64,000 bases of DNA, taken from the IMG/VR virus record IMGVR_UViG_2648501258_000001, positions 1 to 64,000 of that record; one strand, 5' to 3'. Both the position numbers and the translations under genes were made by a program. Below, in pieces: positions 4,501 through 15,460 of the stretch. The DNA comes from a virus. Taxonomy: Duplodnaviria; Caudoviricetes. The notes under the pieces are model-generated. The model was given only the letters and a program-made list of their open reading frames with translations, ran no database searches and had not been told where the DNA came from. Position 1 is the first letter of the stretch, and every line of letters starts with the position of its first letter.

Positions 4501-4684
4501 TATGTGCCCTGAGTGTTATGCTTCTCAGAAGGATATCGTATATTGGAAAACTCTTCCAATTAACCCTGAGCTTGCAGCACTCAGAGATGCATACATCTCA
4601 CCACCAAAGAAGTGTTATCCGTCTCTAATCGCAGCCCTGGCTGCATGGAATATCACTGTAACAGAAGAAGGAGAGTGGCTATGA
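4445..4684 (+). CDS. hypothetical protein
   Basis: ATG after AGGAG; ATGA overlap with next gene. Confidence 0.45.
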   Translation: METTSSNASHSPSSASLTDMCPECYASQKDIVYWKTLPINPELAALRDAYISPPKKCYPSLIAALAAWNITVTEEGEWL

Positions 4685-5097
4685 GTATTTGGAACTGGTT
4701 TAAAGATTCGAAGACTAAACCAAAGACTAAACCGAAGGAGCGCACTGTTGCAGACAGGGAAGCAGATATGATAGGAGAGCCTGTCAAGACATTCCTCCAG
4801 TCTTTGAAAGACAACCCCAAGCGTTATCAGTTGCAGCGTGTGCAAAAACTGTCAAGTAAGAAGTACCCAGGTTTCACAGGCTACCATTGGATGAAAGGCG
4901 CTGGGTACTGGGAGCTTACAGATAAGAAGACTGGCACCACCTTCGGAGCTTATGTCCACGAAGAGGGTGGGTACTCTAATCCAATGAGATGCACCAAACA
5001 TCTCTATCTCTACGAGGGAGAAGAGGAAGCCATATATGAATATTACAAGGGTGTTATTAGAGCAGCCTTTGCTGCACGTGGAGGGGCTATATGCTAA
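4681..5097 (+). CDS. hypothetical protein
   Basis: ATG 4681 after AGGAG. Confidence 0.6.
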   Translation: MSIWNWFKDSKTKPKTKPKERTVADREADMIGEPVKTFLQSLKDNPKRYQLQRVQKLSSKKYPGFTGYHWMKGAGYWELTDKKTGTTFGAYVHEEGGYSNPMRCTKHLYLYEGEEEAIYEYYKGVIRAAFAARGGAIC

Positions 5098-5264
5098 CTA
5101 CAAATTCAACAGATGAGGAAATCATCAACTATTGCACAGAACGCTTCAATCTCATCCGAGAGACTATTGTCGTAGAGCGGGACGACGATTGGGGTTTCTA
5201 CATCACAGGGCGCTCGGTTGGTAGCATAGAATACCTAACTGTAACTTCTTCCACTGTAAGATGA
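5091..5264 (+). CDS. small hypothetical protein (57 aa)
   Basis: GGAGG RBS; ATGA overlap with next gene. Confidence 0.5.
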   Translation: MLTTNSTDEEIINYCTERFNLIRETIVVERDDDWGFYITGRSVGSIEYLTVTSSTVR

Positions 5265-5446
5265 GCAAATACAAAGAACTACAAGCTCAACAAAAAGCTC
5301 TGGCAGCACGCCTAAAGGGTGCTATCCTCTATCAGCACAAATATCGTGGAATGGTGTACCAGCTTGTGGACGGGACATTCTTATCTCAGGCAGAGTACAA
5401 GGTGCTTCGTCGCCAGTGCATGTTCTATATGTTGTTTGCAATATAA
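5261..5446 (+). CDS. small hypothetical protein
   Basis: last ORF before the terminator. Confidence 0.5.
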   Translation: MSKYKELQAQQKALAARLKGAILYQHKYRGMVYQLVDGTFLSQAEYKVLRRQCMFYMLFAI

Positions 5447-5464
5447 TCCCCCGCCGAAATTTCA

Positions 5465-5494
5465 AATAGCCTCCTTCATTGGAGGCTTTCTTTT
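5465..5494 (+). terminator. intrinsic terminator ending the + strand block
   Basis: AGCCTCC-TTCATT-GGAGGCT followed by TTCTTTT. Confidence 0.8.
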
Positions 5495-5611
5495 GCCCGC
5501 TGAAAAATAATGGGGGGGCCTCCCTCTGATTCCCAAACTGGATATTTTTCCGAGGTACTTAACAGAACACAAGGGGGCCTATGGCTGGCCGCCGTAAATT
5601 ATAAATAACCT

Positions 5612-5627
5612 TGGCATGGAACATGCA
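5612..5627 (+). promoter_or_regulatory. sigma54 (-24/-12) motif
   Basis: TGGCATGGAACATGCA = GG-N10-GC. Confidence 0.55.
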
Positions 5628-5640
5628 TAATTAATACCTA

Positions 5641-5656
5641 TGTTCCACGTGGAACG
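5641..5656. promoter_or_regulatory. parS-like palindrome (host ParB site)
   Basis: TGTTCCACGTGGAACG, 15/16 match to TGTTCCACGTGGAACA. Confidence 0.75.
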
Positions 5657-5873
5657 CACACCCCGCCCCGACAACCCTTTGAGCCAATGAATACAGGGGA
5701 AAACAGTATACAAGTTTCGGTATATACAACTACTTGTATTTGTGTCGCATAATATAAAGAGGATCGACCGACTAGGGGATTCTCGCACCGTTGGATAGTT
5801 ATTACACTGTGGGCATAGCTAACCCTGTGAGCGTAGGACAATGACAGAAAGAATATTATTCAATGCCCTGCAT

Positions 5874-5909
5874 TGGTATGCTATGTGCATATGTGCAAGG
5901 ATAGTGCCA
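5874..5909. promoter_or_regulatory. head-to-head pair of sigma54 motifs
   Basis: + TGGTATGCTATGTGCA (5874-5889) and - TGGCACTATCCTTGCA (5909-5894, perfect consensus). Confidence 0.7.
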
Positions 5910-6371
5910 TACGATAGCGAGTGTATATATGCATGTACCATTGGGTAGGGTAGTGGGTGATAGGGGTGGACTATGTAGGGCTTCGCCCTGATAGAAAAGC
6001 TTTTCTTGACATTTGAGTGTAAAATGTGATCGCTTCGCTTAAACATCAGGGTCTGCTAGTAGAAAGAAACCGCCATAGCACGTTTTGAGGGGTTATTATT
6101 GATAGGCCAGCCTATCGGTGGGATTAACTCTAGGCCAGGGCCTACGGGGCTTACAGGGCCTTACAAGGGTATTATCTTGACCTTCGGTCACATAGTGCTA
6201 ACCCATACCTTCGGTATGTTTTCAAACCTTTTGAGAAAGTTTAACTATATATTATTTTATATGTAAAACCATATTGGAAGGTATTACGCTCTAGCCTTCG
6301 GCTAACGGTGCAAAGCTCTATTGTGCATAGTTCCTATGCTAGAAAACTAGCAGACGTTCCGTCTAGGCATG

Positions 6372-6393
6372 AAAAAGCCCGCTCAAGGCGGGC
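6372..6393 (-). terminator. intrinsic terminator ending the early (- strand) island
   Basis: GCCCGC-CTTGA-GCGGGC followed by TTTTT on the - strand. Confidence 0.85.
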
Positions 6394-6395
6394 AT

Positions 6396-6411
6396 TGTTT
6401 CACGTGCAATA
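6396..6411. promoter_or_regulatory. second, degenerate parS-like site
   Basis: TGTTTCACGTGCAATA, 14/16 match to TGTTTCACGTGAAACA. Confidence 0.5.
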
Positions 6412-6413
6412 TG

Positions 6414-6668
6414 CTACGGTATATCGTCGTTTTCGATAGTCTGGCCTTCGATATCAATCGAAACAATCTCAAAAACCGTTTCACCGATTTGATATTTATC
6501 GAGCCAATTGGTCAAGCCTTTTTCATCCTGCCATACGGCTTGATATTGGGCATTGTGTTGGCTTGTATTCACCATGCCGTCAAGCTTGTCTGTAGCTGTA
6601 TCAATGACGTAATCGTTACAAGCTGACATTGTGCAAACTACAGCTACAGTTGCAAATAGAACGCCCAT
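6414..6668 (-). CDS. early hypothetical protein (YebW/DUF1482-like N-terminus)
   Basis: LFATVAVVC....C.DYVID pattern. Confidence 0.55.
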   Translation of the reverse strand: MGVLFATVAVVCTMSACNDYVIDTATDKLDGMVNTSQHNAQYQAVWQDEKGLTNWLDKYQIGETVFEIVSIDIEGQTIENDDIP

Positions 6669-6753
6669 GGTTAGACCCCTTTGCTAAGGTTAATGAGACC
6701 AATCAGGATGCAAGCCCCAAGAGCTATCATCACCATATCGAGAATCAAATCCA

Positions 6754-6972
6754 TTATGCTTTACCCTGTTTATTGTTCAATTGTTTGACGGCGTCGTCAA
6801 TTTCAACTTGAGTGTCGCCAGTGCGAATGATTTTCATCTTGCAGGCTTTACCATAACCTTCTTGCAAGTCATCCTTTTCATCCTCAACAACTTCCCTATC
6901 GTAGTCGCCAAAGTGGATGCACCACTCGGTATCATCTTTGATCAGGAGGGTAAAGTAGGATTTGGTTTTCAT
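6754..6972 (-). CDS. early acidic hypothetical protein
   Basis: W.IHFGDYDREVV..E; directly behind a promoter. Confidence 0.7.
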   Translation of the reverse strand: MKTKSYFTLLIKDDTEWCIHFGDYDREVVEDEKDDLQEGYGKACKMKIIRTGDTQVEIDDAVKQLNNKQGKA

Positions 6973-7002
6973 TGTCCGGGCCTTTCTAGTTGGTGTGGGA
7001 GC

Positions 7003-7031
7003 ATTCTACCTAGAGAATGCCCCTTGTGCAA
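7003..7031 (-). promoter_or_regulatory. sigma70 early promoter
   Basis: TTGCAC-17-TAGAAT. Confidence 0.65.
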
Positions 7032-7034
7032 GCC

Positions 7035-7394
7035 TTATTTGTAGTTAGTGTTTGGCTTTTCTACCCGTACACTGCCGTTTTCAAGGTAGGCCACCACACG
7101 CAAGCTATGCTTTTTGAAATTCTTTACATAGTACATTACTGCGTCTGCCGCTGTTTCTACTTTGCTGCTACCTTCTTTAACTGGGATTTCTTTACCGTTT
7201 TCTTCGTCAATTACGTGACCTTCGACACTGTACCACTCAACTGGGGATGTTTCGCATTCTGCTTTGTACTCTTTATGGGCACTACGCAAGGCAATGGCAA
7301 ACAACACTTTGTAAGGCGCTGGCTTGATGCCATTTGCGGCGATACGAGCCATTTTAGCTTTAGTTGCTTTGTGTGCTTGGGCCATTACGTTCAT
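7035..7394 (-). CDS. early hypothetical protein
   Basis: ORF behind promoter; AAAGGT RBS. Confidence 0.7.
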   Translation of the reverse strand: MNVMAQAHKATKAKMARIAANGIKPAPYKVLFAIALRSAHKEYKAECETSPVEWYSVEGHVIDEENGKEIPVKEGSSKVETAADAVMYYVKNFKKHSLRVVAYLENGSVRVEKPNTNYK

Positions 7395-7447
7395 TGCTAG
7401 CTACCTTTAGCTGTTTGGGTTGGCTTGATTGCCTTCCCTTGACGCCC

Positions 7448-7475
7448 ATTCTACGCTTTTGAGGATAGGCGTCAA
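7448..7475 (-). promoter_or_regulatory. sigma70 early promoter
   Basis: TTGACG-16-TAGAAT with A-rich UP element. Confidence 0.8.
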
Positions 7476-7484
7476 GCTTTTATT

Positions 7485-7754
7485 TTAAGTATTTTTGAGC
7501 CACTTAACAATTTCTTTTACCTTTGGACCGTGGGCCTCAGTCCAACTGTACTCTAGCTGACTACCATCTGCATAACCATATTGTGATTTAACTGCACGAC
7601 CTTTATCATTACGCTTTTCATTGAAAAGGCTCCCACCTTGAAAGCGTACAATACTACCATCGTGGCGATTTGCTTGACCTGCATACAGGCTGTATGCAGC
7701 GAATGTTTCAGCGGTAAGGGTTGCGACTACTTTAGCAGCGATGGTATTAGTCAT
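7485..7754 (-). CDS. early hypothetical protein
   Basis: ORF following a long structured leader. Confidence 0.7.
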   Translation of the reverse strand: MTNTIAAKVVATLTAETFAAYSLYAGQANRHDGSIVRFQGGSLFNEKRNDKGRAVKSQYGYADGSQLEYSWTEAHGPKVKEIVKWLKNT

Positions 7755-7782
7755 GGTTGTGGCCTTATGTGTGGATTGGTTT

Positions 7783-7898
7783 GGTAGGCGCTGTATCCGC
7801 TTTTATGCCTACCTTCGCGGAATCCTTTGACGGGGATTAGTTCGAATGCTTCTGCATCCCTATCAAGGCTTTTTAAGAGCTAACCTTGCTTCCTCTTG
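7783..7898 (-). ncRNA. structured 5' leader or small RNA ending in an H-type pseudoknot
   Basis: UCCGC/GCGGA and GGUAGGC/GCCUACC interleaved, plus upstream hairpins. Confidence 0.45.
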
Positions 7899-7904
7899 AG
7901 ACCA

Positions 7905-7942
7905 ATTGTACGCCAATGGTTATGGCCGTCAACAACTATTTT
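7905..7942 (-). promoter_or_regulatory. sigma70 early promoter with AAAATAGTTG UP element
   Basis: TTGACG-16-TACAAT. Confidence 0.8.
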
Positions 7943-8183
7943 CGTATAGCGTATCGGATTATTAAAACCCAAAAGCATAAGGCCATAATACCTAAAACCG
8001 GATGATCAATTCCAAACATCACATAGTCTCACATTTTTCAAGGTTGTGTCAATACTTATTTGTATGGCCCTGTAAGCCCCTGTAGTGCGTTTTAAGAGGC
8101 TTTAGCCTCAAGGCATACATGGGCCTAGGGTGGGGCTGGCAAACGTCGTGCTTGATTTGTCAACCCCTATCCACACATTATTC

Positions 8184-8633
8184 TTATAAAGATTGCTTGA
8201 CAGTGGGAGCTTCTTTCTTGGCTGGCTTGTCAGCTAATACACTATCAATCTTTTCCTCAAGCAAGCTGATAGCCTTGCCGCCGATACGTTTACCCGTTTC
8301 ACTGGTAACAGCTTGGTAAGTGATGCCGCCGCCAACAATGATGGCTAGATCCTTTTGAGTGGGGATCAGGTAGCTAAGACAGCCTAAGACAATGCCGACA
8401 ATCATAAACCATTTACAGACGCCACGGACGGCCAAGGCTGTGGTGCTATTGAATGTGTCAGACCACTTTACCGCTGGCTTACCGCAATAGCTGGGGCTTT
8501 CTGTACACAAGGCGCTAATGATAGCCACAAGTGCCGTTACAACCAAACCGCCCCAGAATGCAGCCCAACCAAGGGCCAGCAATGCAGCGAATTGTTCAAT
8601 TATAACGAACATGTACAAAACCAGAAATTCCAT
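8184..8633 (-). CDS. early membrane protein
   Basis: hydrophobic segments and LIPTQKD motif; GAGG RBS. Confidence 0.7.
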   Translation of the reverse strand: MEFLVLYMFVIIEQFAALLALGWAAFWGGLVVTALVAIISALCTESPSYCGKPAVKWSDTFNSTTALAVRGVCKWFMIVGIVLGCLSYLIPTQKDLAIIVGGGITYQAVTSETGKRIGGKAISLLEEKIDSVLADKPAKKEAPTVKQSL

Positions 8634-8667
8634 GATATATCCTCTTTTATGTATTAGGGTAGGTGGA

Positions 8668-9270
8668 TTAGTCTTTCAATGCCCGGACTAGACGCCCGTC
8701 TTTGTCCCTTACAACTGGAATCTTTGCAGCCCGTAGTGCATAGCTATCACACAAATTGCTATCAGTCTGTAAACACTCAAGCAACACACGCTCATATATA
8801 GCATTATCAAATACCGTTTCTTCTGGCTCGCAAGCTGTCAGTGTAGTGGCGATAAGCCCCAAGCCGAACAACTTACCAAGCGTGCCAGCAATACGAGCTT
8901 TGTAGCCTACCAGCTTTTCACCCTTGTACATTTTCGTATGTTCCATTTTGTAACTGTCTTGACAAAGTATCGCTTTCATTGCAGCCAAGTGGCGCTGTCG
9001 CACAGCTTCGACATTAGAGCGAACCAATGCAGCCTTGACAATATCAGTGACTACAGTCTGGCCCCAGTCAGCGCCACCATAAGCGATAAACCCACCATTT
9101 GCAGCGCCTTTGTAGTCGATCCGCAAGATATTATGCCCTTTGCGATTCTGTACATAAACGCGGTTGGCGTGACCGCCACGCAAGTGGCCTTTACCCATTG
9201 CTGCATCTTTCAATGCAGCACGTACCTTAGCAATCATGGTTGGGTGTGTCAAGCTAGTGATGGTGATCAT
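8668..9270 (-). CDS. early hypothetical protein, possibly a fusion of two modules
   Basis: 200-aa ORF with internal lipoprotein-like LTAC. Confidence 0.6.
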   Translation of the reverse strand: MITITSLTHPTMIAKVRAALKDAAMGKGHLRGGHANRVYVQNRKGHNILRIDYKGAANGGFIAYGGADWGQTVVTDIVKAALVRSNVEAVRQRHLAAMKAILCQDSYKMEHTKMYKGEKLVGYKARIAGTLGKLFGLGLIATTLTACEPEETVFDNAIYERVLLECLQTDSNLCDSYALRAAKIPVVRDKDGRLVRALKD

Positions 9271-9315
9271 GATAAAGCTTCCTTTGTGTGTGCAGGCTAT
9301 CGCCTGTCTGTAGGC

Positions 9316-9344
9316 ATCTTAACAATACCGCTCAAGCTATGCAA
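9316..9344 (-). promoter_or_regulatory. sigma70 early promoter
   Basis: TTGCAT-17-TAAGAT. Confidence 0.6.
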
Positions 9345-9362
9345 GCGGTATTAGTAAAAAAT

Positions 9363-9575
9363 CTACATGTGAAATTCTGAGTTATCAAGCCATTCAATGG
9401 CTGCCCTCAATGCACTGCCATATTCACAGCTTGCCACACTGGCGCCTACATATTCCTTTCCACTATAGAAGCTAACCACAAAGCCGTTATCAGCCTCATA
9501 TATTCTAGCCTTGGCGTCGCCACCTTTATCGTCAGTGGCGAGCCTTTGGAATTCTGCTACACACTTAGTAGACAT
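9363..9575 (-). CDS. early hypothetical protein
   Basis: TAATG coupling. Confidence 0.6.
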   Translation of the reverse strand: MSTKCVAEFQRLATDDKGGDAKARIYEADNGFVVSFYSGKEYVGASVASCEYGSALRAAIEWLDNSEFHM

Positions 9576-9793
9576 TACGCCACCTTTTCAAGTTTGATAT
9601 TAGCCACTAGATAGCTATTGCCCCCGTAGGTTGGGTTTTCAGCCTTATAGGCCAAGTGAACCCCAAGCCCTGTACCCTCAAGCAAGCAATAGAGTTTATT
9701 GTCTACTTGAGTTTGAGCGCCTTTGTAGGTTTTATAACCTTTTGGATTGCCTTGTTTACGGCCTAGTGCATCGTAAATGAAATAGCGTTCCAT
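9575..9793 (-). CDS. early hypothetical protein
   Basis: YFIYD...GNPKGYKTYKGA motif. Confidence 0.7.
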   Translation of the reverse strand: MERYFIYDALGRKQGNPKGYKTYKGAQTQVDNKLYCLLEGTGLGVHLAYKAENPTYGGNSYLVANIKLEKVA

Positions 9794-9825
9794 GATTCTT
9801 TACCCTGTATCGTTTGTGTGTGGCT

Positions 9826-9853
9826 ATTCTATCAAAGTGAATAGCCATTGCAA
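9826..9853 (-). promoter_or_regulatory. sigma70 early promoter
   Basis: TTGCAA-16-TAGAAT. Confidence 0.65.
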
Positions 9854-9861
9854 GGATTATT

Positions 9862-10299
9862 TTAGTGGTTATCGAATACGTGGTAGCTTGTACCGTTTAG
9901 AGTTACTTCCTCTTCATTACCATCATAATGGTTGAAGTGGTGGCCGTAACCGTCTGCACTGGCATAAGCTTCTGCCATACTTTCGGCGTAACCTTCGCTA
10001 ACAATGGCTTGCCCCAGTGCATCATATGCATCGCCCTTCTGGGCCGCTTCGATCAGCGCCATGGGCCAGCCTGTCACTTCTGCAATGAAAGAGGCATTAA
10101 AGCAGCCAAGAACGTGTGTATCACTCGACAACTCAGACGCCAGCACAGCGTCAATTCCACTTGCCTTAATGAAACGTACATTATCAACTTCAAAATCATC
10201 ACAACCTTCTACCAGATTTTCAACCACTTCCCGCCAGTCTGGAGTCGAAAACAAATCATTGCAAAATTCAACGGTAGTTTTGATTTGGGAGAATTTCAT
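9862..10299 (-). CDS. acidic early protein, candidate antirestriction / DNA-mimic
   Basis: Asp/Glu-rich; ADGYGHHFNHYDGNEEE motif; function is inference. Confidence 0.55.
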   Translation of the reverse strand: MKFSQIKTTVEFCNDLFSTPDWREVVENLVEGCDDFEVDNVRFIKASGIDAVLASELSSDTHVLGCFNASFIAEVTGWPMALIEAAQKGDAYDALGQAIVSEGYAESMAEAYASADGYGHHFNHYDGNEEEVTLNGTSYHVFDNH

Positions 10300-10349
10300 A
10301 GTAGCATTCCTTTCGGGGTTGGGAGGCTTGTTCGCCTCTTGTGTGACCA

Positions 10350-10377
10350 ATTCTACAGGGTTGGGTTATGGTGTCAA
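10350..10377 (-). promoter_or_regulatory. sigma70 early promoter
   Basis: TTGACA-16-TAGAAT. Confidence 0.85.
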
Positions 10378-10713
10378 TACCCTATAACAACTATTTCCAG
10401 CTTTTGTTTGCCACTCACTAGGATACCAATGCACTCCCCAAACGGTTAAGAGTGCCTGCAATTGTCTGGTAGTGCGATAGTTGCGCATGCTGGGGCATGT
10501 TTCCTTATAGTATATTTCCCCACTAGGCAAGACAATCAACCCGCTATAGCCTCGCCTGTGCGCGTCTGATTTGAATGCTACAATCCTATGCCGCCCTACG
10601 TGGTCCCTGTACAACCTTATGCATGGGCCTTGTGGGAATGTAAGCGACCTAACAGGCCGCTCTAATCCGGTCATAGCACACTGATTAAGCGCGTTATAGA
10701 CTGATTTATCCAA
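10366..10713 (-). CDS. early hypothetical protein (start uncertain)
   Basis: fills the gap after the Gp88-like gene. Confidence 0.45.
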   Translation of the reverse strand: MDKSVYNALNQCAMTGLERPVRSLTFPQGPCIRLYRDHVGRHRIVAFKSDAHRRGYSGLIVLPSGEIYYKETCPSMRNYRTTRQLQALLTVWGVHWYPSEWQTKAGNSCYRVLTP

Positions 10714-10718
10714 GGCTA

Positions 10719-11414
10719 TTAACCCCGTGCAATCAATTCGACAGTCTTTGCGGCTGTACCGTGGGCGCGAAAACCAATGATATAATCCCGGTCTACCACT
10801 TGACACAAACCACAAGACATGCAATTCACTTTGTCTGTATTTTCGGCGGGACAAATTACCACCTTGTTGCCCGCTGGAGTGTAGGACACTTTTTCTGCAT
10901 CACGTGGCATAAGCACGACTACAGGGGCAATGTTCAAAGCTTTGAGCTTGTCAGCGTGTGTAATATCATTGCCGCTAAGGTTGATTGTGAAACCAAATCG
11001 CATAGCCTCACTGACACTCGTTTGATTGCTCATACGTACAGCATGATCTTTATGCAACACGTCGTAATGTGTGTATGTAAAGCCACGTTTACCCTTGTTT
11101 GCCTTCGCAAGCTCTACCAATTTCAGGCCGTCGATAACATCGTTTATGCCATTCAAATCACCGGCTTGATTGTGACGCCATAAGCTACCACGGGACAACG
11201 CTTTAACTTGGCGAATGAACTGGGGCCATTCTACAGCGTCCTTAGCTTTACCGTTGTCTACATTCCGCCATGCCATACCAGTTGGGCCGTACTTTGCATA
11301 ACAGCCTTTCAACTTGATAGGGCAAGCATCTGGGCATGTCGAACTATTGCTAGTCGATACAGGCATTGGGCCAGTTTTACGATTGCCAGATACAGCTTTT
11401 AGAACATAGTACAT
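10719..11414 (-). CDS. Gp88-like / radical-SAM-like Cys-cluster protein
   Basis: NxKTG, TCPxxCP..GCYA, RHNxAGD, C-terminal CPA..CxxCGLC..IGFxAHG. Confidence 0.65.
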   Translation of the reverse strand: MYYVLKAVSGNRKTGPMPVSTSNSSTCPDACPIKLKGCYAKYGPTGMAWRNVDNGKAKDAVEWPQFIRQVKALSRGSLWRHNQAGDLNGINDVIDGLKLVELAKANKGKRGFTYTHYDVLHKDHAVRMSNQTSVSEAMRFGFTINLSGNDITHADKLKALNIAPVVVLMPRDAEKVSYTPAGNKVVICPAENTDKVNCMSCGLCQVVDRDYIIGFRAHGTAAKTVELIARG

Positions 11415-11465
11415 AGTAGCGCTTCCTGTGGTTTGCTGTGGTGGCCCGCTGGCCTTGTGTGACGT

Positions 11466-11493
11466 ATTCTATAGCATTGGTTGGGTGTGTCAA
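11466..11493 (-). promoter_or_regulatory. sigma70 early promoter
   Basis: TTGACA-16-TAGAAT. Confidence 0.85.
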
Positions 11494-11882
11494 CTCTTAT
11501 TCTTGCAATATAACCAGAAAAGAACAATCAAGAATAGAAGCCAGCGAAACGCTTTGTCATTGCAATATTCCCTCATCCTGTAGCGTATCAGTCGCCACTT
11601 AGGAGGATCGGGAGCGAAAGGCATAGCGTCATAGTCTTTTTCCCCTTCGGCTTCTGGCTTGCTTCCTAGGGCCTTGAGCTTGACAGCGTGAATCTTTTCT
11701 CGTTGCACTCTAAGGTAGGTGCTATATTCCTCTATTTCCTCTTGTGGGATTTGACCGGCCTTGATAGCACGTTTAAATTCAGCCTCAAGCGCTTCTATTG
11801 CGTCTACCTTTTCTTCAATAGGTGCAATTCGATAACGCAAGGGCTTAACAGGCTTGACAACGTTAACCCTTAAAGCGGCCAT
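11490..11882 (-). CDS. early protein with C-terminal TM helix
   Basis: TAATG coupling; hydrophobic C-terminus. Confidence 0.6.
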   Translation of the reverse strand: MAALRVNVVKPVKPLRYRIAPIEEKVDAIEALEAEFKRAIKAGQIPQEEIEEYSTYLRVQREKIHAVKLKALGSKPEAEGEKDYDAMPFAPDPPKWRLIRYRMREYCNDKAFRWLLFLIVLFWLYCKNKS

Positions 11883-12004
11883 TATATAGCCACGTACCAC
11901 ACGCCATCTTGCTTGTAAAGCTTGCAAGGCGTACCACGGGAAACGTGCATATTAGCCACGTCACAAGCAAAACCAACGTTAGGAAAACCAAATACCTGTT
12001 TCAT
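11882..12004 (-). CDS. small early protein (40 aa)
   Basis: GAGG RBS; behind promoter. Confidence 0.55.
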   Translation of the reverse strand: MKQVFGFPNVGFACDVANMHVSRGTPCKLYKQDGVWYVAI

Positions 12005-12035
12005 TTTGTAGCCTCTAGTTCGTTTCGATATGAGG

Positions 12036-12064
12036 ATTGTATAGACGCAAAAATGCCCCGTCAA
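12036..12064 (-). promoter_or_regulatory. sigma70 promoter overlapping a terminator-like hairpin (12049-12094)
   Basis: TTGACG-17-TACAAT; ATGCCCCG..CGGGGCAT stem. Confidence 0.7.
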
Positions 12065-12092
12065 GCGTTTATTTTGCTTGCGGGGCATTCTT

Positions 12093-12386
12093 TTACAGTC
12101 GGCCAGTTAGGGCCTTGATTCGCTCGCCATGCTCACCGTCGATACATGCGGTAAAATCTGGCAATCCTTCGGGCCACTCTTTCAACCCTAGCGCCGCTTG
12201 GACGTCAACAAATAGGCTGTAATTACTACCACGAGCTAACGAACCGCTACCATTCCCGAGAAGAATATAGAGCCTTGCCATCTCCTCAAAACTAAGCCCG
12301 ATAAGATCGAAGGTTTCAGGCGTTGCCGCCGATACCACTACAGTTTCAGTAACAACCGGTTTTGCATCATGCTTGACTACTTGCAT
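12093..12386 (-). CDS. early hypothetical protein
   Basis: GGAG RBS. Confidence 0.65.
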   Translation of the reverse strand: MQVVKHDAKPVVTETVVVSAATPETFDLIGLSFEEMARLYILLGNGSGSLARGSNYSLFVDVQAALGLKEWPEGLPDFTACIDGEHGERIKALTGRL

Positions 12387-12544
12387 TATTCATCACTCCC
12401 CATTGCAGGTGCTACAGGTTGAAATTCGAAGCCACGGCGCCCGTTAGGCGATTGACGTTTGTTCACACTAGCCCGACGCTGGTCACGTTTGGCTTGTTCG
12501 TATTCACGAGCTGTAGCAAAATCCGCTGCTTTCACTTGTTTCAT

Positions 12545-13153
12545 TTATAGATCCTTTATCGAGTGGATTAATGTTTCATGGACTATAGCAGACACTAGCT
12601 TAGACCGTTTTACTTCTAAGCTATGTATTATGTCTTGTGAAGCATACTGCTCTAGCCTGTACCTGTCAAGCAATTTTGTTAATTGTTCCGACTTTTCTAT
12701 TAGCCAAGCCTTGTGAGCTAGCCATTCAGAATTATAGCGGCCTAGTGCCTTTACTTTACCGCTTAGAGTGATTTGAGGGTAAAACTTAGACCCACTCATG
12801 CAAACGCCTAGTGCTAGGCCATTAGAGGCCGTCGAATTATCGAAGGTATTGTTTAGATAGGTAGGGATAAATGCACAAGTGGCAGGGCTGTACAAACTAC
12901 CATCCCCTAGAAAATCCTTATCTAGCTGCCAACCTTCTACGCGGTTTAGCTGACTCCATTCTAAGAAACTGGAGAAAGTCAACCACGATTGACAAACTTT
13001 GACGTTTGCATATGCAGGCTGTCTTCCTGAATAGCAACGCGTGACCATATCCCGCCACAACCTGTAGTGCGGGCATGTGTACTGTTTACCTTCTAAATTC
13101 CATGTAACTTTTACGGGACTATCGTTTACTCCCGCCCCGCAAACTAAACGCAT
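12545..13153 (-). CDS. HNH-type homing endonuclease with AP2-like C-domain
   Basis: GVND..YxxWxxMxxRC..WLTFSxF..LDKD..YSPxTCxF..LGV. Confidence 0.8.
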   Translation of the reverse strand: MRLVCGAGVNDSPVKVTWNLEGKQYTCPHYRLWRDMVTRCYSGRQPAYANVKVCQSWLTFSSFLEWSQLNRVEGWQLDKDFLGDGSLYSPATCAFIPTYLNNTFDNSTASNGLALGVCMSGSKFYPQITLSGKVKALGRYNSEWLAHKAWLIEKSEQLTKLLDRYRLEQYASQDIIHSLEVKRSKLVSAIVHETLIHSIKDL

Positions 13154-13186
13154 TGTAAAATCCCTTATGTTATAGGCTTGATTGCC

Positions 13187-13273
13187 TGCAATGTAGACTG
13201 GTAGGGTTTACCTACATTCCCGACCTACTTTGTAACCAGCCGGACGCTTATTTAGAGGACAGTCTACATTACA
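13187..13273 (-). ncRNA. structured RNA element A (14-bp closing stem, multi-branch interior)
   Basis: UGUAAUGUAGACUG...CAGUCUACAUUGCA; the one mismatch is a U-G wobble only on the - strand. Confidence 0.55.
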
Positions 13274-13292
13274 AACTAACTAGAGTAAACCC

Positions 13293-13598
13293 TTAATCGT
13301 TGAAATTGTAAGTGATACCGGCCACGGTGCAAGCCTTGAGATTTTCCAGTTTGAGCGAGCGGAAAGAACGCTTAGGATCTTTCTTGTAAGCCTCAAGGTC
13401 ACACAAGACGTAGTTTTCGACTGGGGCATTGCTAACCCCCTTATCGTTCTTGTCCCCGCTTGCCAGCGCCTTTTCAATCCACTTCTTGGCTTGCATGGTG
13501 CGAAGTGTACCATCCGCTTTAACGAATGTCACGTGAAACATTTGGCCCTTGGCAGAGTCGAGAATTTCACGCTTTTTGTTGATTGATACAGTAGCCAT
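13293..13598 (-). CDS. WYL-like / SH3 beta-barrel (DUF2693-type) protein
   Basis: VTFVKADGTLRTM...DLE...FRSLKLENL. Confidence 0.7.
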   Translation of the reverse strand: MATVSINKKREILDSAKGQMFHVTFVKADGTLRTMQAKKWIEKALASGDKNDKGVSNAPVENYVLCDLEAYKKDPKRSFRSLKLENLKACTVAGITYNFND

Positions 13599-13648
13599 TT
13601 TGTAACCCTCTTTCGTTTGGTGTGCCCGTTGTGGGCGGTATGGAAGCA

Positions 13649-13677
13649 ATCTTACTGGCTTAGCTTGTCAGTGTCAA
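13649..13677 (-). promoter_or_regulatory. sigma70 early promoter
   Basis: TTGACA-17-TAAGAT. Confidence 0.75.
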
Positions 13678-13694
13678 CAAGCTAAACGATAAAT

Positions 13695-13841
13695 TTACTC
13701 ACATTCGTCCGGCAGGATGGTGATAGGAAAATCATATTCATCCTCTAGCATCTGGTAAACGTCAAGCTTTTGTGTACCCTTGACAAACCAAACTTTATCG
13801 ACGTGGCTGTGAACACCCTTGCGATAGACTTTCCAGAACAT
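13695..13841 (-). CDS. first gene of the early island (48 aa)
   Basis: MFWKVYRKG...; AAAGGT RBS; behind promoter. Confidence 0.6.
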   Translation of the reverse strand: MFWKVYRKGVHSHVDKVWFVKGTQKLDVYQMLEDEYDFPITILPDECE

Positions 13842-13891
13842 GGCTGCTTACCTTTCTACTAAAGGGAAGTTGTTTCCCTTTCTTGTTGCCC

Positions 13892-13929
13892 ATTCTACAG
13901 ACCTACAAACATACGTCAACAACTATTTT
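13892..13929 (-). promoter_or_regulatory. sigma70 early promoter with AAAATAGTTG UP element
   Basis: TTGACG-16-TAGAAT. Confidence 0.85.
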
Positions 13930-14006
13930 CATCTATTTTCTAGCAGCTACACATAAGGAAACGGGAGCGCGTGCGAATAGCATGGGAAAATATTTCTGTC
14001 AAGGGC

Positions 14007-14034
14007 TTGTTTTGCTTGTGGGCTTCTGTATAAT
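14007..14034 (+). promoter_or_regulatory. outward-facing sigma70 promoter with no downstream gene
   Basis: TTGTTT-16-TATAAT. Confidence 0.6.
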
Positions 14035-14109
14035 CATAGCTAGCAGGAACGCAAGCCTACGGGCCGGACACTGGAGTATAAGACGGGGAGGGTGGGCGTT
14101 ATTCTAAGT

Positions 14110-14143
14110 TGGCACGGCAATTGCTAGAGCAAAGATCATGCCT
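14110..14143. promoter_or_regulatory. head-to-head pair of sigma54 motifs
   Basis: + TGGCACGGCAATTGCT (perfect) and - AGGCATGATCTTTGCT. Confidence 0.75.
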
Positions 14144-14153
14144 AAATTAGTTT

Positions 14154-14191
14154 AAAATAGTTGTTGACACTGCCAACCAGAAGCGTACAAT
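14154..14191 (+). promoter_or_regulatory. outward-facing sigma70 promoter with UP element and no downstream gene
   Basis: AAAATAGTTG-TTGACA-16-TACAAT. Confidence 0.8.
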
Positions 14192-14286
14192 GACCACAGT
14201 TTCAAGCTTCCTACCGAGTTAGGAGGTGCCCACTTGTCCCAAGCGCAGCCAAGCGAGGCCAACTCCTGCCCGAGTGTTTTACATTC

Positions 14287-14302
14287 TGGCACGGGGCTTG
14301 CT
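14287..14302 (+). promoter_or_regulatory. sigma54 motif (perfect consensus)
   Basis: TGGCACGGGGCTTGCT. Confidence 0.75.
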
Positions 14303-14444
14303 AAGCTCATTCCGTGACTAAATACTCATGTTCAGTCACAAATAGATAGCATCCTATCTGATCCCAATTCTCCCTCCGATCCAATAGATAGCTCCCTACC
14401 GATGCAAATCCACATATGATGCCCATAATGTACAACCACGTGTG

Positions 14445-14580
14445 TATATTTTCAAAATTGTACAGGGCTGTAAAAAAAATCGCCCGGTTCCCAAATTTCT
14501 GTAAAAATCTGTCGTTACCTAAATTTCTATCGAGTCCCGAATTTCCACGAGACTCCTTGAGGCTGTAAAAATCTACCGAT
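14445..14580. repeat. A-tract repeat block, possible genome terminus / packaging signal
   Basis: CTGTAAAAA x3 and AATTTC x3 in non-coding DNA. Confidence 0.45.
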
Positions 14581-14583
14581 TCC

Positions 14584-15123
14584 TCAGTCTTCAACACTCC
14601 ATGTCCCCGCATGCGACTCTGCATCGAGCAGCTTGAACCTGCCTATCTCCCAACTCTTTCTTACTGCCACAGCGTCAAGCAGGCAGCGGTACATGCCCAA
14701 ACTCTTGTACTTCTTTCCTTCGGTATAATAGCTTTGGAACTTCCCTTTCGCCTCTCTCCAGCATACACCTTGCGGTAATATCCTGTTAGCTACAGCGGCA
14801 CGCCTATTGACCATCTGGACTCGATCAGATACCCACCTGCAATTCTCTTTGGAATATCCTAGCATGTCAAATCTTCTGTCCAAACTTTTACCCGCGTGAA
14901 AGTAATCTGGCAAATAAGGGTCGCCATTAAATAAGTCGGGATGTGTATCTACCATATCCCGCAGGAAATTCACGAATCCTATTTCTTTTGGCGGCATCCA
15001 CTCATCGCACACAGTAATACCTCTGCCGCCATAGTTCACCCAAGATTTGTGATGTGGTTTAGTGCAACGTGCAATCATAGCGTTCCACACTGGATACATC
15101 CGATGCCTCGATAATCTAGTCAT
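14584..15123 (-). CDS. HNH homing endonuclease with AP2-like domain
   Basis: YGGRGITVCDEW, SLDR..GYSKENCRW. Confidence 0.8.
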   Translation of the reverse strand: MTRLSRHRMYPVWNAMIARCTKPHHKSWVNYGGRGITVCDEWMPPKEIGFVNFLRDMVDTHPDLFNGDPYLPDYFHAGKSLDRRFDMLGYSKENCRWVSDRVQMVNRRAAVANRILPQGVCWREAKGKFQSYYTEGKKYKSLGMYRCLLDAVAVRKSWEIGRFKLLDAESHAGTWSVED

Positions 15124-15172
15124 TGTATTCCCCTTGGTCAAAACGAAAGTATACTTTAAATCGGAGGCAAAG

Positions 15173-15198
15173 AAAAGCCCCAGCACAAGGTTGGGGCT
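15173..15198 (-). terminator. intrinsic terminator
   Basis: AGCCCCA..TGGGGCT followed by TTTC. Confidence 0.7.
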
Positions 15199-15202
15199 AA
15201 AT

Positions 15203-15451
15203 TCATACAGCTTCTTTTCTATTGACAATCTCTTGAATGGTTGTGATACGAGTGTCAATCCATCGACGACGATAAAGATTGAAACACTTCACACGTTCTT
15301 CCTCTAACGACTTGATTTCCAACTTCAAATCTCGGATCGACTTTGCATACAAGAGCGCCAACTCTTTCTCGGTTAGCATGTCCGTTGCCTCTGTGAAGAG
15401 AACATCATTGTCCTCTTGAGTATTGTACACCTCTTGCATGCTCCTTGTCAA
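15203..15451 (-). CDS. hypothetical protein (start uncertain)
   Basis: ORF track. Confidence 0.45.
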   Translation of the reverse strand: MTRSMQEVYNTQEDNDVLFTEATDMLTEKELALLYAKSIRDLKLEIKSLEEERVKCFNLYRRRWIDTRITTIQEIVNRKEAV

Positions 15452-15460
15452 GCTACTTAA

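What the first reader, a model, noticed from the sequence alone, without database searches (positions are those of the whole stretch)
5500..14580. Early island bracketed by two non-coding 'landing pads' for host DNA-binding machines
Seen: a ~7.5-kb block of small - strand genes with about 10 strong sigma70 promoters lies between two gene-free blocks (about 5.5-6.4 kb and 13.93-14.58 kb). Both blocks carry three sigma54 motifs each, including a head-to-head pair. The left block also has parS palindromes, UUCG hairpins and periodic DNA; the right block has A-tract repeats. Known: T5 has a long terminal repeat holding pre-early genes that ends in a non-coding injection-stop region. Inference: this island may be the first-injected or terminally repeated DNA, and its ends may recruit host RpoN-RNAP, ParB(-SMC) and gyrase to pull in, pause, protect or position the genome. 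I know of no described system with this combination.
Basis: partly seen in the sequence, partly recalled or inferred. Interest (0 to 1): 0.85.

Follow-up and report, generated by a model that had tools for sequence, protein, structure and literature searches.

The report
Phage genome end carrying host sites

Summary
The window is 64 kb of a 97.6-kb Otagovirus-like Pseudomonas phage. All 3 exact sigma-54 boxes (TGGCAC-N5-TTGC) of the genome lie in the two gene-free blocks, and a 15/16 host-type parS lies in the left block. Both motifs recur at the same places in relatives.

By homology to the mapped ends of phiPsa374 and UNO-G1W1, the left block is the collapsed short direct terminal repeat (about 5561-6039, 479 bp, non-coding). 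A roughly 350-nt structured plus-strand RNA region follows it. So the island lies next to a physical end but is not itself repeated, and it is not T5-like.

The right block is a conserved control region present in 63 phage records. It holds leftward early promoters, two rightward promoters making ORF-less structured RNAs, an exchangeable dyad slot and A-tract iterons.

The phage encodes no ParB, sigma-54 or sigma-54 activator, so host proteins would have to bind these sites. Binding and function are untested. My best guess is that the phage hitch-hikes on host ParABS, as phi29 does with Spo0J.

Precedents exist: phi29 parS and the YuA sigma-54 promoter. This scan reached the same reading earlier on a related phage (e1-5990564). 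I rate it a new variant of a known kind.

The parts
5468..5487 (+). Intrinsic terminator closing the rightward gene set that ends at about 5446
   Evidence: 7-bp stem, T tail. The stretch 5450-5512 is conserved in phiK7A1 and UNO-G1W1.
5561..6039 (.). Predicted direct terminal repeat (479 bp), present once in this collapsed assembly. Its edges would be the physical genome ends.
   Evidence: Boundary motifs GAGGTACTT|AAC and GATCGCTTCGCT| match the edges of the phiPsa374 DTR (PhageTerm) and, within 12 nt, of the UNO-G1W1 DTR. Inferred by homology, not shown by reads.
5612..5626 (+). Sigma54-like box next to parS (2 mismatches here)
   Evidence: Aligned box is TTGGCAYGAnnnTTGCATAA in ventosus, UAVern and Bitten and is lost in Y1-MI, so 4 of 5 rows counting the window. 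Position.
5641..5656 (.). Host-type parS, TGTTCCACGTGGAACG (15/16)
   Evidence: Invariant in 5 of 5 aligned left blocks. Its mismatch is at the same last position as P. aeruginosa parS1/parS4 (PMC4368675 Table 1).
5737..5766 (.). Conserved DTR-internal motif of unknown role (TATTGTGGTCGCAC-TATATATAGAGGATC in relatives)
   Evidence: Run of invariant columns in alignment A4.
5874..5909 (.). Inverted repeat made of a degenerate (+) and an exact (-) sigma54 box. The exact box is at 5895-5909 on the - strand.
   Evidence: The (-) box is kept in UAVern (exact) and, read by eye from alignment A4, in ventosus with 1 mismatch, so 3 of 5 rows.
6003..6039 (.). Conserved motif at the inner DTR edge (TTCTTGACA...GATCGCTTCGCT). 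Candidate terminase cut or recognition site.
   Evidence: It lies in the short stretch (window 6005-6051) that is one of the few parts of the left block still alignable to phiPsa374 and UNO-G1W1, and it spans their DTR edge. Conserved in 5 of 5 close relatives.
6040..6376 (+). ORF-less structured RNA region made of a chain of covarying hairpins, including the CTTCGG hairpins
   Evidence: RNAalifold gives + strand -45.98 kcal/mol (62 pairs) against - strand -33.62. 94.3% of cells are paired against 87.0 +/- 1.2 in shuffles (0 of 500), and 14 pairs changed on both sides. No Rfam match. Transcription is not shown.
6377..6393 (-). Terminator of the island's last gene
   Evidence: Conserved in ventosus, UAVern and Y1-MI.
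6396..6411 (.). Decayed second parS (3 mismatches)
   Evidence: The aligned sites in ventosus and UAVern have 1 mismatch.
6414..13841 (-). Block of about 18 small leftward genes, presumed early. Mostly unknown function, with DUF7227 at 10719-11414 and an HNH-type endonuclease at 12545-13153.
   Evidence: Early timing is inferred from promoter type and gene size only.
13892..13919 (-). Leftward sigma70 promoter with UP-like AAAATAGTTG, firing into the island
   Evidence: TCTAyA...ACGTCAAC is conserved in 11 of 11 aligned phages.
13974..14003 (-). Putative second leftward promoter (TTGACA-18-TATTCG, weak -10)
   Evidence: Conserved TGTCAA and GCGAATA. Annotated as a promoter in KIL4. Not found by the scans.
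14006..14034 (+). Rightward promoter A (perfect TATAAT at 14029-14034, weak -35)
   Evidence: The -10 keeps TAnnnT in 22 of 22 aligned sequences while its other letters vary.
14041..14105 (+). Conserved small structured RNA core (outer 3-5 bp helix, inner hairpin, several GGA motifs)
   Evidence: Of 22 sequences (19 distinct), 18 fold into both helices and 20 show the inner hairpin, with at least 9 different stem sequences. The outer pair A-U switches to G-C in 4 of 22. No conserved ORF. No Rfam match.
14110..14143 (.). Dyad slot: exact sigma54 box #1 (+, 14110-14124) facing a degenerate box (-, 14128-14143)
   Evidence: A (+) box with at most 1 mismatch sits 31-34 nt after the RNA core in 11 of 25 loci. 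Other phages carry other dyads there, and contigs of relatives replace it with a 26-nt dyad.
14164..14191 (+). Rightward sigma70 promoter B (TTGACA-16-TACAAT, 11/12), mirror image of the promoter at 13919
   Evidence: (25-nt inverted repeat I1). It is the only + strand site between 4.2 and 44.4 kb. Conserved in relatives.
14198..14345 (+). ORF-less conserved structured transcript of promoter B, ending in hairpin 14314-14339
   Evidence: RNAalifold over window 14195-14351 gives + strand -37.28 kcal/mol (45 pairs, 6 with compensatory change) against - strand -21.18.
14287..14301 (+). Exact sigma54 box #2 (TGGCACGGGGCTTGC)
   Evidence: Exact at the aligned place in ventosus, UAVern, Amme-3 and XD2, so 5 of 25 loci. 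Its letters also pair with upstream GCGAG and UGCC in the RNA fold.
14341..14398 (.). Two copies of a dyad (AATAGATAGCnnCCTA)
   Evidence: D3. Conserved in ventosus and UAVern.
14466..14592 (.). A-tract iterons (CTGTAAAAATCTGTC-type, 3-4 copies)
   Evidence: D1, D8. The unit is kept in both clades. With up to 2 mismatches the motif occurs nowhere else in the genome.
14584..15258 (-). HNH-type homing-endonuclease-like gene abutting the block. It stands where ventosus and UAVern have a terminator and a 70-aa gene.

Best explanation
The stretch is the end-proximal, presumed early region of an Otagovirus-like virulent Pseudomonas myophage.

Left block: (i) the roughly 479-bp non-coding direct terminal repeat (about 5561-6039), whose edges are the packaged genome ends and which the assembly has collapsed to one copy; (ii) a roughly 350-nt region that folds as a chain of conserved hairpins on the + strand.

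Right block: the bidirectional control region of the leftward gene array. One or two sigma70 promoters fire left into the island. Two sigma70 promoters fire right into DNA with no ORF. The first rightward promoter yields a roughly 65-nt conserved stem-loop RNA followed by an exchangeable dyad. The second yields a roughly 150-nt structured RNA, and its transcription runs into two dyads and an A-tract iteron array.

Host-factor sites lie on top of this frame, and the phage has no protein of its own for them. There is a high-affinity-type parS inside the terminal repeat, so one copy sits at each virion end and one at each concatemer junction. Sigma54 -24/-12 boxes lie in the repeat and in the control region.

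Inferred mechanism: host ParB loads at the repeat's parS and couples phage DNA to the host ParABS/condensation system. This would position the DNA, bring its ends together, or let it be inherited when lysis is delayed, as phi29 does with Spo0J. Host sigma54-RNA polymerase would sit on the boxes, either as extra condition-dependent promoters for the non-coding RNAs or as silent or repressive closed complexes.

Shown: the motifs, their conservation, their excess over chance, RNA covariation, and homology to mapped DTR edges. Inferred: the ends of this phage, early timing, all protein binding and all function.
For: Identity: best DNA matches are Otagovirus-type Pseudomonas phages. The genome is 97,612 bp and rated 100% complete.

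Terminus: phiPsa374 has a 526-bp DTR by PhageTerm (PMC9796965 passages; annotated). UNO-G1W1 has a 544-bp DTR in the paper (PMC11256812 passages) and 551 bp exact in the record. Both DTR edges carry motifs kept in the window at 5552-5563 and 6003-6039. In those records the homologous small-gene block ends about 0.4 kb from the repeat.

parS: 15/16, against about 0.001 sites with up to 1 mismatch expected per genome (my arithmetic). It is invariant in 5 of 5 aligned left blocks. A site with up to 1 mismatch is present in 9 of 12 relatives examined. In phiPsa374 it lies inside the annotated DTR at 389-404. The reversed-pattern control gave 0 in all 10 records searched. P. aeruginosa ParB binds one-mismatch parS strongly, and a single parS with parAB stabilises a plasmid (PMC4368675 passages).

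Sigma54: 3 of 3 exact boxes lie in the blocks. UAVern has 4 of 4 in its two blocks. Amme-3 has 4 exact boxes: 2 in its right block and 2 further on towards the presumed left block, one of them 85 nt from a parS site. Box #1 sits at a fixed 31-34 nt after the RNA core in 11 of 25 loci, with the N5 spacer free.

No phage ParB_N, Sigma54_activat, Sigma54_DBD or Sigma70_r2.

RNAs.

Right-block similarity in 63 phage records.

Precedents: phi29 parS/Spo0J, the YuA sigma54 promoter, and orphan or antisense RpoN sites with silent or repressive effect in Yersinia ChIP-seq (PMC7657599 passages).
Against: No reads of this phage were available, so its ends are not mapped. The assembly shows no end repeat. 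The UAVern and KIL4 records carry no exact repeat either.

parS with up to 1-2 mismatches is missing in KIL4, UNO-G1W1 and 16Q, so the lineage can do without it.

No ORF follows any sigma54 box, and no activator is encoded. Box #1 is absent or replaced by unrelated dyads in 14 of 25 loci. Contigs of close relatives in runs X1, X10 and X18 replace it with a 26-nt dyad. The letters of box #2 can also be explained by pairing with upstream GCGAG and UGCC in the RNA fold, and those pairs never vary. Both head-to-head pairs are inverted repeats, which could be operators of an unidentified dimeric protein. The order of box and parS relative to the end differs between the window and phiPsa374.

Pseudomonas does not sporulate, so the phi29 rationale does not transfer directly. 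Early timing and transcription of the RNAs are not shown.
Confidence: 0.6

Rival explanations
1. The sigma54-like boxes are not RpoN sites. The dyads are operators of an unidentified phage or host dimeric regulator, or helices of the non-coding RNAs, and the likeness to the -24/-12 consensus is incidental.
For: Both head-to-head pairs are inverted repeats. The slot after the small RNA holds three unrelated dyad types in different phages. The GGCA and CUUGC of box #2 pair with conserved UGCC and GCGAG in the + strand fold. No gene and no activator go with any box.
Against: Single boxes without a partner (14287; L189 box #1; the DTR + box in UAVern and Bitten) keep TGGCAY and TTGC at the exact 5-nt spacing while the spacer varies. 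3 of 3 exact matches here and 4 of 4 in UAVern lie in the blocks, against about 0.2 expected per genome (expectation is my arithmetic). Several boxes extend to TGGCACG...TTGCW. A sigma54 promoter is documented in Pseudomonas phage YuA.
Confidence: 0.3
2. The right block is the phage's replication origin. The iterons bind an initiator, and the tandem rightward promoters (sigma70 plus sigma54) supply activating or priming transcription. The small RNAs are by-products or primers.
For: 3-4 A-tract iterons occur only in this block and are kept in both clades. Two to four rightward promoters with no ORF point at them. The block is conserved at DNA level in 63 records while the flanking genes are not. 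From recall only: T7 and T4 origins pair promoters with an unwinding region, and lambda ori has bent iterons.
Against: No DnaA box or IHF core. No initiator gene was identified beside it. The first small RNA has strong structure covariation of its own, which a mere primer would not need. No replication data exist.
Confidence: 0.3
3. One reading: a T5-like first-step-transfer segment whose ends recruit RpoN-RNAP, ParB-SMC and gyrase to pull in, pause or protect entering DNA.
For: The island lies within about 8.3 kb of a predicted physical end. Host-factor motifs flank it. Earlier notes of this scan describe similar motif sets in T5-like phages (AI notes, not evidence).
Against: The repeat is about 0.5 kb, non-coding and excludes the island. 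Island genes are transcribed towards the near end, so polymerase could not pull DNA in from that end. No DnaA boxes. No feature speaks for gyrase or SMC. Strong leftward promoters continue to 44 kb, so the right block is not the edge of the promoter-rich region.
Confidence: 0.08
4. parS serves the phage against the host or in packaging, not in partition. Multi-copy phage DNA would titrate ParB and derail host segregation, or ParB would act as an architectural factor for terminase at the concatemer junction.
For: parS sits inside the repeat, about 80 bp from one cut site. Relatives carry 3-5 sites clustered in the repeat and island. Lack or excess of ParB disturbs P. aeruginosa segregation (PMC4368675 passages).
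Against: There is no obvious benefit within one lytic cycle. Three relatives lack the site. No data exist.
Confidence: 0.15

Closest known systems
Short direct terminal repeats of Otagovirus phages phiPsa374 (526 bp, PhageTerm) and UNO-G1W1 (544/551 bp)
   Same: Same position between the end of the small-gene block and a convergent gene set. Non-coding. Both edge motifs conserved. parS lies inside the phiPsa374 repeat, and sigma54-like boxes lie inside both repeats.
   Different: Apart from the edge motifs the sequence is not alignable. The length here is inferred to be 479 bp. The ends of this phage are not mapped. UNO-G1W1 has no parS with up to 1 mismatch.
Host-type parS sites and Spo0A boxes of virulent Bacillus phages phi29 and Nf
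   Same: A virulent phage without its own ParB carries sites for the host ParB (Spo0J) together with sites for a host transcription regulator near its early promoters (PMC2731898 passages).
   Different: phi29 is a 19-kb protein-primed podophage with five parS sites, and their use is entrapment in the forespore. Here the host does not sporulate, the best site lies in a DNA terminal repeat, and the second host factor would be sigma54 rather than Spo0A. Binding is not shown.
Sigma54-dependent promoter of Pseudomonas phage YuA
   Same: A Pseudomonas phage carrying a host sigma54-type promoter, supported by a promoter trap and ONT-cappable-seq (PMC10914365 passages).
   Different: YuA is an unrelated siphophage. 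I did not check what its promoter drives. The boxes here have no ORF downstream, and two of them form dyads.
Phage T5 long terminal repeat with pre-early genes and injection stop signal
   Same: End-proximal block of small genes beside repeat-rich non-coding DNA with host-factor motifs.
   Different: T5's repeat is about 10 kb and contains the pre-early genes and DnaA boxes (recalled, not read here). Here the repeat is about 0.5 kb and gene-free, and no DnaA box is present.
PeSL cassettes (early promoter plus stem-loop) of T4-type hyperplastic regions
   Same: Small ORFan genes interspersed with strong sigma70-like promoters and stem-loops. Modular exchange is seen here as the swapped dyad slot and inserted HNH genes (abstract of PMC2839356).
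   Different: PeSLs are repeated terminator cassettes that drive recombination. The right block is a single, deeply conserved locus with covarying RNAs and iterons.

Membership tests
Otagovirus-type short direct terminal repeat | The same sequence is present at both ends of virion DNA | not testable with these tools
   The assembly is collapsed (no end repeat). No run holds this phage (best share of words 0.18). Read laying gave contigs only and no start or end pile-ups.
Otagovirus-type short direct terminal repeat | Edge motifs homologous to mapped DTR edges | tested here: met
   GAGGTACTT|AAC and GATCGCTTCGCT| against phiPsa374 and UNO-G1W1. Window 6005-6051 aligns across their inner edge.
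Otagovirus-type short direct terminal repeat | Non-coding, about 0.5 kb, between the small-gene block and a convergent gene set | tested here: met
   Inferred length 479 bp.
T5-type long terminal repeat / first-step-transfer DNA | Multi-kb repeat that contains the pre-early genes | tested here: not met
   By homology only: in phiPsa374 the repeat is 526 bp and the genes homologous to the island lie outside it.
T5-type long terminal repeat / first-step-transfer DNA | Injection-stop region with DnaA boxes | tested here: not met
   31 DnaA-box matches with up to 1 mismatch in the genome, 0 of them in either block. The consensus was recalled.
Sigma54 (RpoN) promoter | -24 GG and -12 GC elements, TGGCAC-N5-TTGC | tested here: met
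   3 exact boxes, all in the blocks, conserved in relatives.
Sigma54 (RpoN) promoter | An enhancer-binding activator and its upstream sites | tested here: inconclusive
   No Sigma54_activat domain in the phage. Host activators and their sites cannot be assessed here.
Sigma54 (RpoN) promoter | A transcript that starts about 12 nt downstream and depends on rpoN | not testable with these tools
   No RNA data. No ORF lies downstream.
Chromosomal-type parS centromere | 16-bp palindrome matching the host consensus | tested here: met
   15/16 at 5641. Consensus and natural one-mismatch variants from PMC4368675 Table 1.
Chromosomal-type parS centromere | A cognate ParB that binds it | not testable with these tools
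   No ParB_N in the phage. A host ParB is assumed, and the host itself is inferred from relatives.
Iteron-type replication origin | Three or more direct repeats of about 20 bp | tested here: met
   (D1: 4 copies; D8). The motif occurs only in this block.
Iteron-type replication origin | Adjacent initiator gene, DnaA/IHF sites, mapped initiation | tested here: inconclusive
   No DnaA or IHF motif. Neighbouring genes are unknown or HNH-type. Initiation cannot be mapped here.
Any Rfam RNA family | Covariance-model match | tested here: not met
   0 matches at E up to 1 over 4500-16000. 0 tRNAs in the window.

The most novel reading that the evidence does not exclude
Otagovirus-type 'virulent' phages may run a nutrient-gated carrier state by borrowing two host machines. 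The parS in the terminal repeat would act as a centromere, letting host ParABS hold and partition the circularised or concatemeric phage genome in slowly dividing cells. Sigma54-RNA polymerase parked on the boxes at both ends of the early region would switch the control RNAs, or the origin, according to which host enhancer-binding proteins are active (nitrogen or carbon status). This would be a Gram-negative, non-sporulating counterpart of phi29's Spo0J/Spo0A strategy.
Probability: 0.12. Interest if true: 0.85.

Novelty: new variant of a known kind. Interest (0 to 1): 0.55.

Why it matters
If host ParB and RpoN do bind, a whole group of Pseudomonas biocontrol phages (phiPsa374, KIL and P. putida phage relatives) would depend on, or sense, two host systems that are never considered in host-range or resistance studies. 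It would also give a concrete handle on how 'strictly lytic' phages persist in starved cells.

Independently of that, the analysis gives three practical results. It predicts the genome ends of this phage. It shows that two 'intergenic gaps' left unannotated in 63 phage records hold conserved structured RNAs that are absent from Rfam. And it defines an exchangeable dyad slot that could explain regulatory differences between close relatives.

Tried and rejected
- tRNA scan of the window: 0 genes. Rfam at E up to 1 over 4.5-16 kb: 0 matches.
- The look-up of sequencing runs: no run holds half of the words (best 0.18). No RNA holder listed.
- Read laying: all four runs are contigs of relatives (88-97% alike), so no starts or ends could be seen. 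The four runs are X10, X18 and X19, recorded as RNA-Seq but flagged 'probably DNA', and X1, DNA. One X18 contig begins, behind adapter letters, at about window 5563, within 2-3 nt of the predicted left DTR edge. Another adapter-tipped contig end lies at 11740, so I treat this as a weak hint only. The contig over 5638-6762 has depth 97 in X10 against 12-20 for other pieces. The tool warns that depth is not a measure, so I draw nothing from it.
30 of 119 have the site within 600 nt of a locus end, but many contigs are short, so I draw no conclusion.
- IMG/VR scan with GCACYGGAGACAAACA: 49 loci, of which only 6 are real homologues of the right-block core. The second pattern gave 10 loci, of which 8 are real. 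The rest are chance matches, as expected for 15-17 fixed letters.
- Reading TTGGCA as a sigma70 -35: rejected, because no -10 lies at 16-18 nt.
- Reading TTGACA...TAAAAT at 6006-6025 as a promoter: rejected, because the spacer is 8 nt. TTGACA-17-ATCGCT has a poor -10.
- Reading the dyad after the small RNA as its terminator: not supported, because there is no U tract and the dyad is absent in L189.
- Idea that a sigma54 complex between the DNA end and parS keeps ParB clamps from sliding off: dropped, because the order of box and parS is reversed in phiPsa374.
- Idea that the GGA-rich small RNA sponges RsmA/RsmE: not tested. The loops lack GGA in the phiPsa374 type.
- Coding reading of the blocks: translated matches occur on both strands and in several frames, no frame is conserved, and there are no PHROG hits.
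- Periodicity: weak.
- Literature: searches for native parS on lytic phage DNA found only engineered parS tags. The phi29 case came from a lead and was then read. I found no paper on parS or sigma54 boxes in Otagovirus repeats. Supplementary files were not opened.

Full report
WHAT THE DNA IS. The window is the first 64 kb of a 97,612-bp single-contig virus record rated 100% complete, with no end repeat in the assembly. The region 5-15 kb matches Pseudomonas phages of the Otagovirus type only in patches (PPSC2, ventosus, UAVern, Psxphi15, UNO-G1W1 and others). 11 records matched and none covered 80% of the query. Their hosts are P. fluorescens, syringae, putida, protegens, gessardii and aeruginosa. 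The host of this phage is inferred from them.

THE OBSERVATION. The layout is as described.
- Rightward genes end near 5446 with a terminator at 5468-5487.
- About 18 small leftward ORFs fill 6414-13841 and end with a terminator at 6393-6377.
- Leftward genes resume at 14584.
- Inside the two gaps, the 8 ORFs of 50 aa or more match no PHROG.
- Translated similarity to relatives in the gaps appears on both strands and in several frames, which points to nucleotide conservation rather than protein conservation.
- The conserved core of the right gap has no frame open in all 11 aligned phages.

Sigma70-like sites are twice as frequent as in shuffles: 40 against 19.1 +/- 4.6. By a stricter rule, 8 strong leftward promoters lie in the island. 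The same rule finds 25 leftward sites all the way from 7.4 to 44.4 kb. The island is therefore the end of a long leftward array, not a separate promoter island.

Exact TGGCAC-N5-TTGC occurs three times in the genome, and all three are in the gaps, which make up 1.8% of the genome: 14110+, 14287+ and 5909-.

The parS at 5641 is 15/16. The second site at 6396 has 3 mismatches. The CTTCGG hairpins and the A-tract repeats are present. Periodicity is weak.

THE LEFT BLOCK IS THE GENOME END. phiPsa374 has 526-bp direct terminal repeats found with PhageTerm (PMC9796965, passages). They are annotated at 1-526 and 97762-98287. UNO-G1W1 has a DTR of 544 bp by the paper (PMC11256812, passages) and 551 bp exact in the record. 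In both records the small-gene block homologous to the island runs up to about 0.4 kb from that repeat.

Little of the left block still aligns to these two phages. The longest such piece is window 6005-6051, and it spans the inner edge of their repeats. Printed side by side, the phiPsa374 repeat ends exactly after GATCGCTTCGCT, which is window 6028-6039. Its other edge follows GAGGTGTTT|AAC, which corresponds to window GAGGTACTT|AAC at 5552-5563. The UNO-G1W1 edges lie 12 nt inside each of these.

I therefore place the repeat at about 5561-6039 (479 bp). This is homology, not a measurement. No public run holds this phage, and the contigs I laid cannot show ends.

The island is thus next to a physical end but is not part of the repeat. 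The repeat is gene-free, so the T5 comparison fails on its defining feature. Neither block contains a DnaA box.

WHAT ELSE IS IN THE LEFT BLOCK. Five close relatives align over the whole block: window, ventosus, UAVern, Bitten and Y1-MI. The most strongly conserved elements are:
- the two edge motifs;
- the parS, invariant in 5 of 5;
- a sigma54 box just before it, TTGGCAYGAnnnTTGCATAA, in 4 of 5;
- an internal motif at 5737-5766.

Between the repeat and the island terminator (6040-6376) the sequences differ, yet they keep a chain of hairpins with compensatory changes. RNAalifold gives -45.98 kcal/mol with 62 pairs on the + strand, against -33.62 on the - strand. On the + strand, 94.3% of cells pair against 87.0 +/- 1.2 in shuffles (0 of 500) and 34-48% when partners are slid. 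14 pairs changed on both sides.

Two caveats apply. There are only five sequences, and the structure was derived from the same alignment, so the figures lean towards it. The G-U pairs favour the + strand. I found no convincing promoter for this RNA.

THE RIGHT BLOCK. Its centre is similar in 63 phage records, although the flanking genes are not alignable at DNA level. I aligned 11 phages and 14 further IMG/VR loci that passed a BLAST filter. Together they show a fixed order of elements:
1. A leftward promoter with an UP-like AAAATAGTTG (13919-13892).
2. A putative second leftward promoter (14003-13974).
3. A rightward promoter A whose -10 stays TAnnnT in 22 of 22 sequences.
4. A roughly 65-nt RNA core (14041-14105).
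5. A dyad slot (14110-14143).
6. Rightward promoter B (14164-14191, 11/12). It is the mirror image of the 13919 promoter and the only + strand promoter between 4.2 and 44.4 kb.
7. A roughly 150-nt conserved stretch that folds better on the + strand: -37.28 against -21.18 kcal/mol.
8. Two dyads.
9. An A-tract iteron array (14466-14592) whose unit, with up to 2 mismatches, is found nowhere else in the genome.

For the RNA core, 18 of 22 sequences (19 distinct) fold into the same outer helix plus inner hairpin. The inner hairpin appears in 20 of 22. The two misses, XD2 and KIL4, are rows where my regular expression started too early. At least nine different stem sequences keep the pairing. The outer A-U pair becomes G-C in 4 of 22. 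Neither RNA is in Rfam.

SIGMA54 BOXES: HOW GOOD IS THE READING?

For:
- Exact matches cluster in the two blocks in this genome (3 of 3).
- They do the same in UAVern (4 of 4).
- Amme-3 has 4 exact boxes. Two are in its right block. The other two lie further on towards the presumed left block, one of them 85 nt from a parS site.
- The reversed-pattern control gave 2 hits in 9 records, against 23 real hits.
- Box #1 sits 31-34 nt after the RNA core in 11 of 25 loci, with a free spacer. These loci include phages whose RNA core is of the phiPsa374 type.
- The repeats of phiPsa374 and UNO-G1W1 hold 3 and 4 boxes with up to 1 mismatch.
- A sigma54 promoter is documented in Pseudomonas phage YuA.
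- Orphan and antisense RpoN sites with silent or repressive effects are known from ChIP-seq.

Against:
- No ORF or activator goes with any box.
- Both pairs are inverted repeats.
- The slot of box #1 carries unrelated dyads in 14 of 25 loci.
- Contigs of near relatives from three runs replace it with a 26-nt dyad.
- The conserved letters of box #2 can pair with conserved upstream letters in the RNA fold.

I put host sigma54 binding at roughly 0.6.

parS. The 16-mer differs from the perfect Pseudomonas palindrome only at its last base. That is the position that varies in the P. aeruginosa sites parS1 and parS4, which are bound strongly and suffice for segregation. A single parS with parAB stabilises a plasmid (PMC4368675, passages and Table 1).

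Sites with up to 1 mismatch occur in 9 of 12 relatives examined. Most lie in the repeat, the left block or the island. In phiPsa374 the site is inside the annotated DTR, so each virion DNA carries two copies. The controls gave 0. KIL4, UNO-G1W1 and 16Q lack it. The phage has no ParB_N domain. I put host ParB binding at roughly 0.75.

MECHANISM. The shown facts stop at motifs, conservation and RNA covariation. The closest studied case is phi29/Nf. These are virulent phages with five host-type parS sites bound by Spo0J, used to carry the genome into the prespore, together with Spo0A boxes that silence early promoters (PMC2731898, passages).

By analogy, and from what a single parS does for a plasmid, I favour hitch-hiking on host ParABS. 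The purpose could be positioning, end pairing, or inheritance during delayed lysis. The sigma54 sites would serve as condition-dependent promoters or as parked, repressive complexes on the control region. The right block may in addition be an origin: it has iterons plus tandem promoters, but no DnaA or IHF motif and no initiator. I put that at about 0.3. Gyrase and SMC remain pure conjecture.

NOVELTY. Terminal repeats, intergenic control regions, a phage sigma54 promoter and host parS on a virulent phage each have precedents. New here are the combination, its conservation across a group of Gram-negative virulent phages, the placement of parS inside the terminal repeat, and two RNA candidates not in Rfam.

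An earlier follow-up in this scan reached the same reading on a related 96-kb Pseudomonas phage (e1-5990564). My analysis is independent of it, but the finding is not new to the scan. I found no paper describing it.

VERDICT. The finding is a new variant of a known kind, with interest 0.55.

Noticed in passing
window 12545-13153 (-) and 14584-15258 (-): Two HNH-type homing-endonuclease-like genes (PHROG 953 at 4e-63; PHROG 374 at 3e-39). The second abuts the iterons, where ventosus and UAVern have a terminator and a 70-aa gene. This suggests a mobile insertion at the edge of the control region.
   Followed up: partly
window 10719-11414 (-): A 231-aa DUF7227 protein (Pfam 3e-100) is 73-79% identical in PPSC2, UNO-G1W1, phiPsa374 and UAVern, although the surrounding island genes are poorly conserved. 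It is the one deeply conserved island gene.
   Followed up: no
window 14096-14153; runs X1, X10, X18: Contigs of close relatives replace the sigma54 dyad, together with the tail of the small RNA, by a 26-nt stretch that is itself an inverted repeat. A third dyad type stands there in phiPsa374/KIL-type phages. The slot therefore behaves as an exchangeable cassette.
   Followed up: partly
window 14041-14105 and homologues: The small RNA core keeps three invariant GGA motifs, and many relatives also have GGA in the hairpin loop. This recalls RsmY/RsmZ-type sponges of RsmA. It was not tested, and there is no Rfam match.
   Followed up: no
In 30 of the 119 the site lies within 600 nt of a contig end. 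Many of these contigs are short, so this may mean nothing, but parS near phage termini could be surveyed properly.
   Followed up: partly
window 13293-13649 (-): This 118-aa ORF matches two separate places each in UAVern and ventosus, so it belongs to a small paralogous family in the early region. It has a weak WYL_2 hit below the Pfam cut-off.
   Followed up: no
window 5615-5646: The spacer of the degenerate sigma54 box (TGGAACAT) is the exact complement of the first 8 letters at parS (ATGTTCCA). This forms an 8-bp dyad around a 16-nt AT-rich centre. It is specific to this phage and is not seen in Bitten or UAVern.
   Followed up: no
run X10, contig over window 5638-6762: The contig covering the repeat, the spacer RNA region and the last island gene has word depth 97, against 12-20 for other pieces of the same relative. 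The cause could be repeat doubling, a mix of strains or RNA. It cannot be decided from contigs.
   Followed up: no
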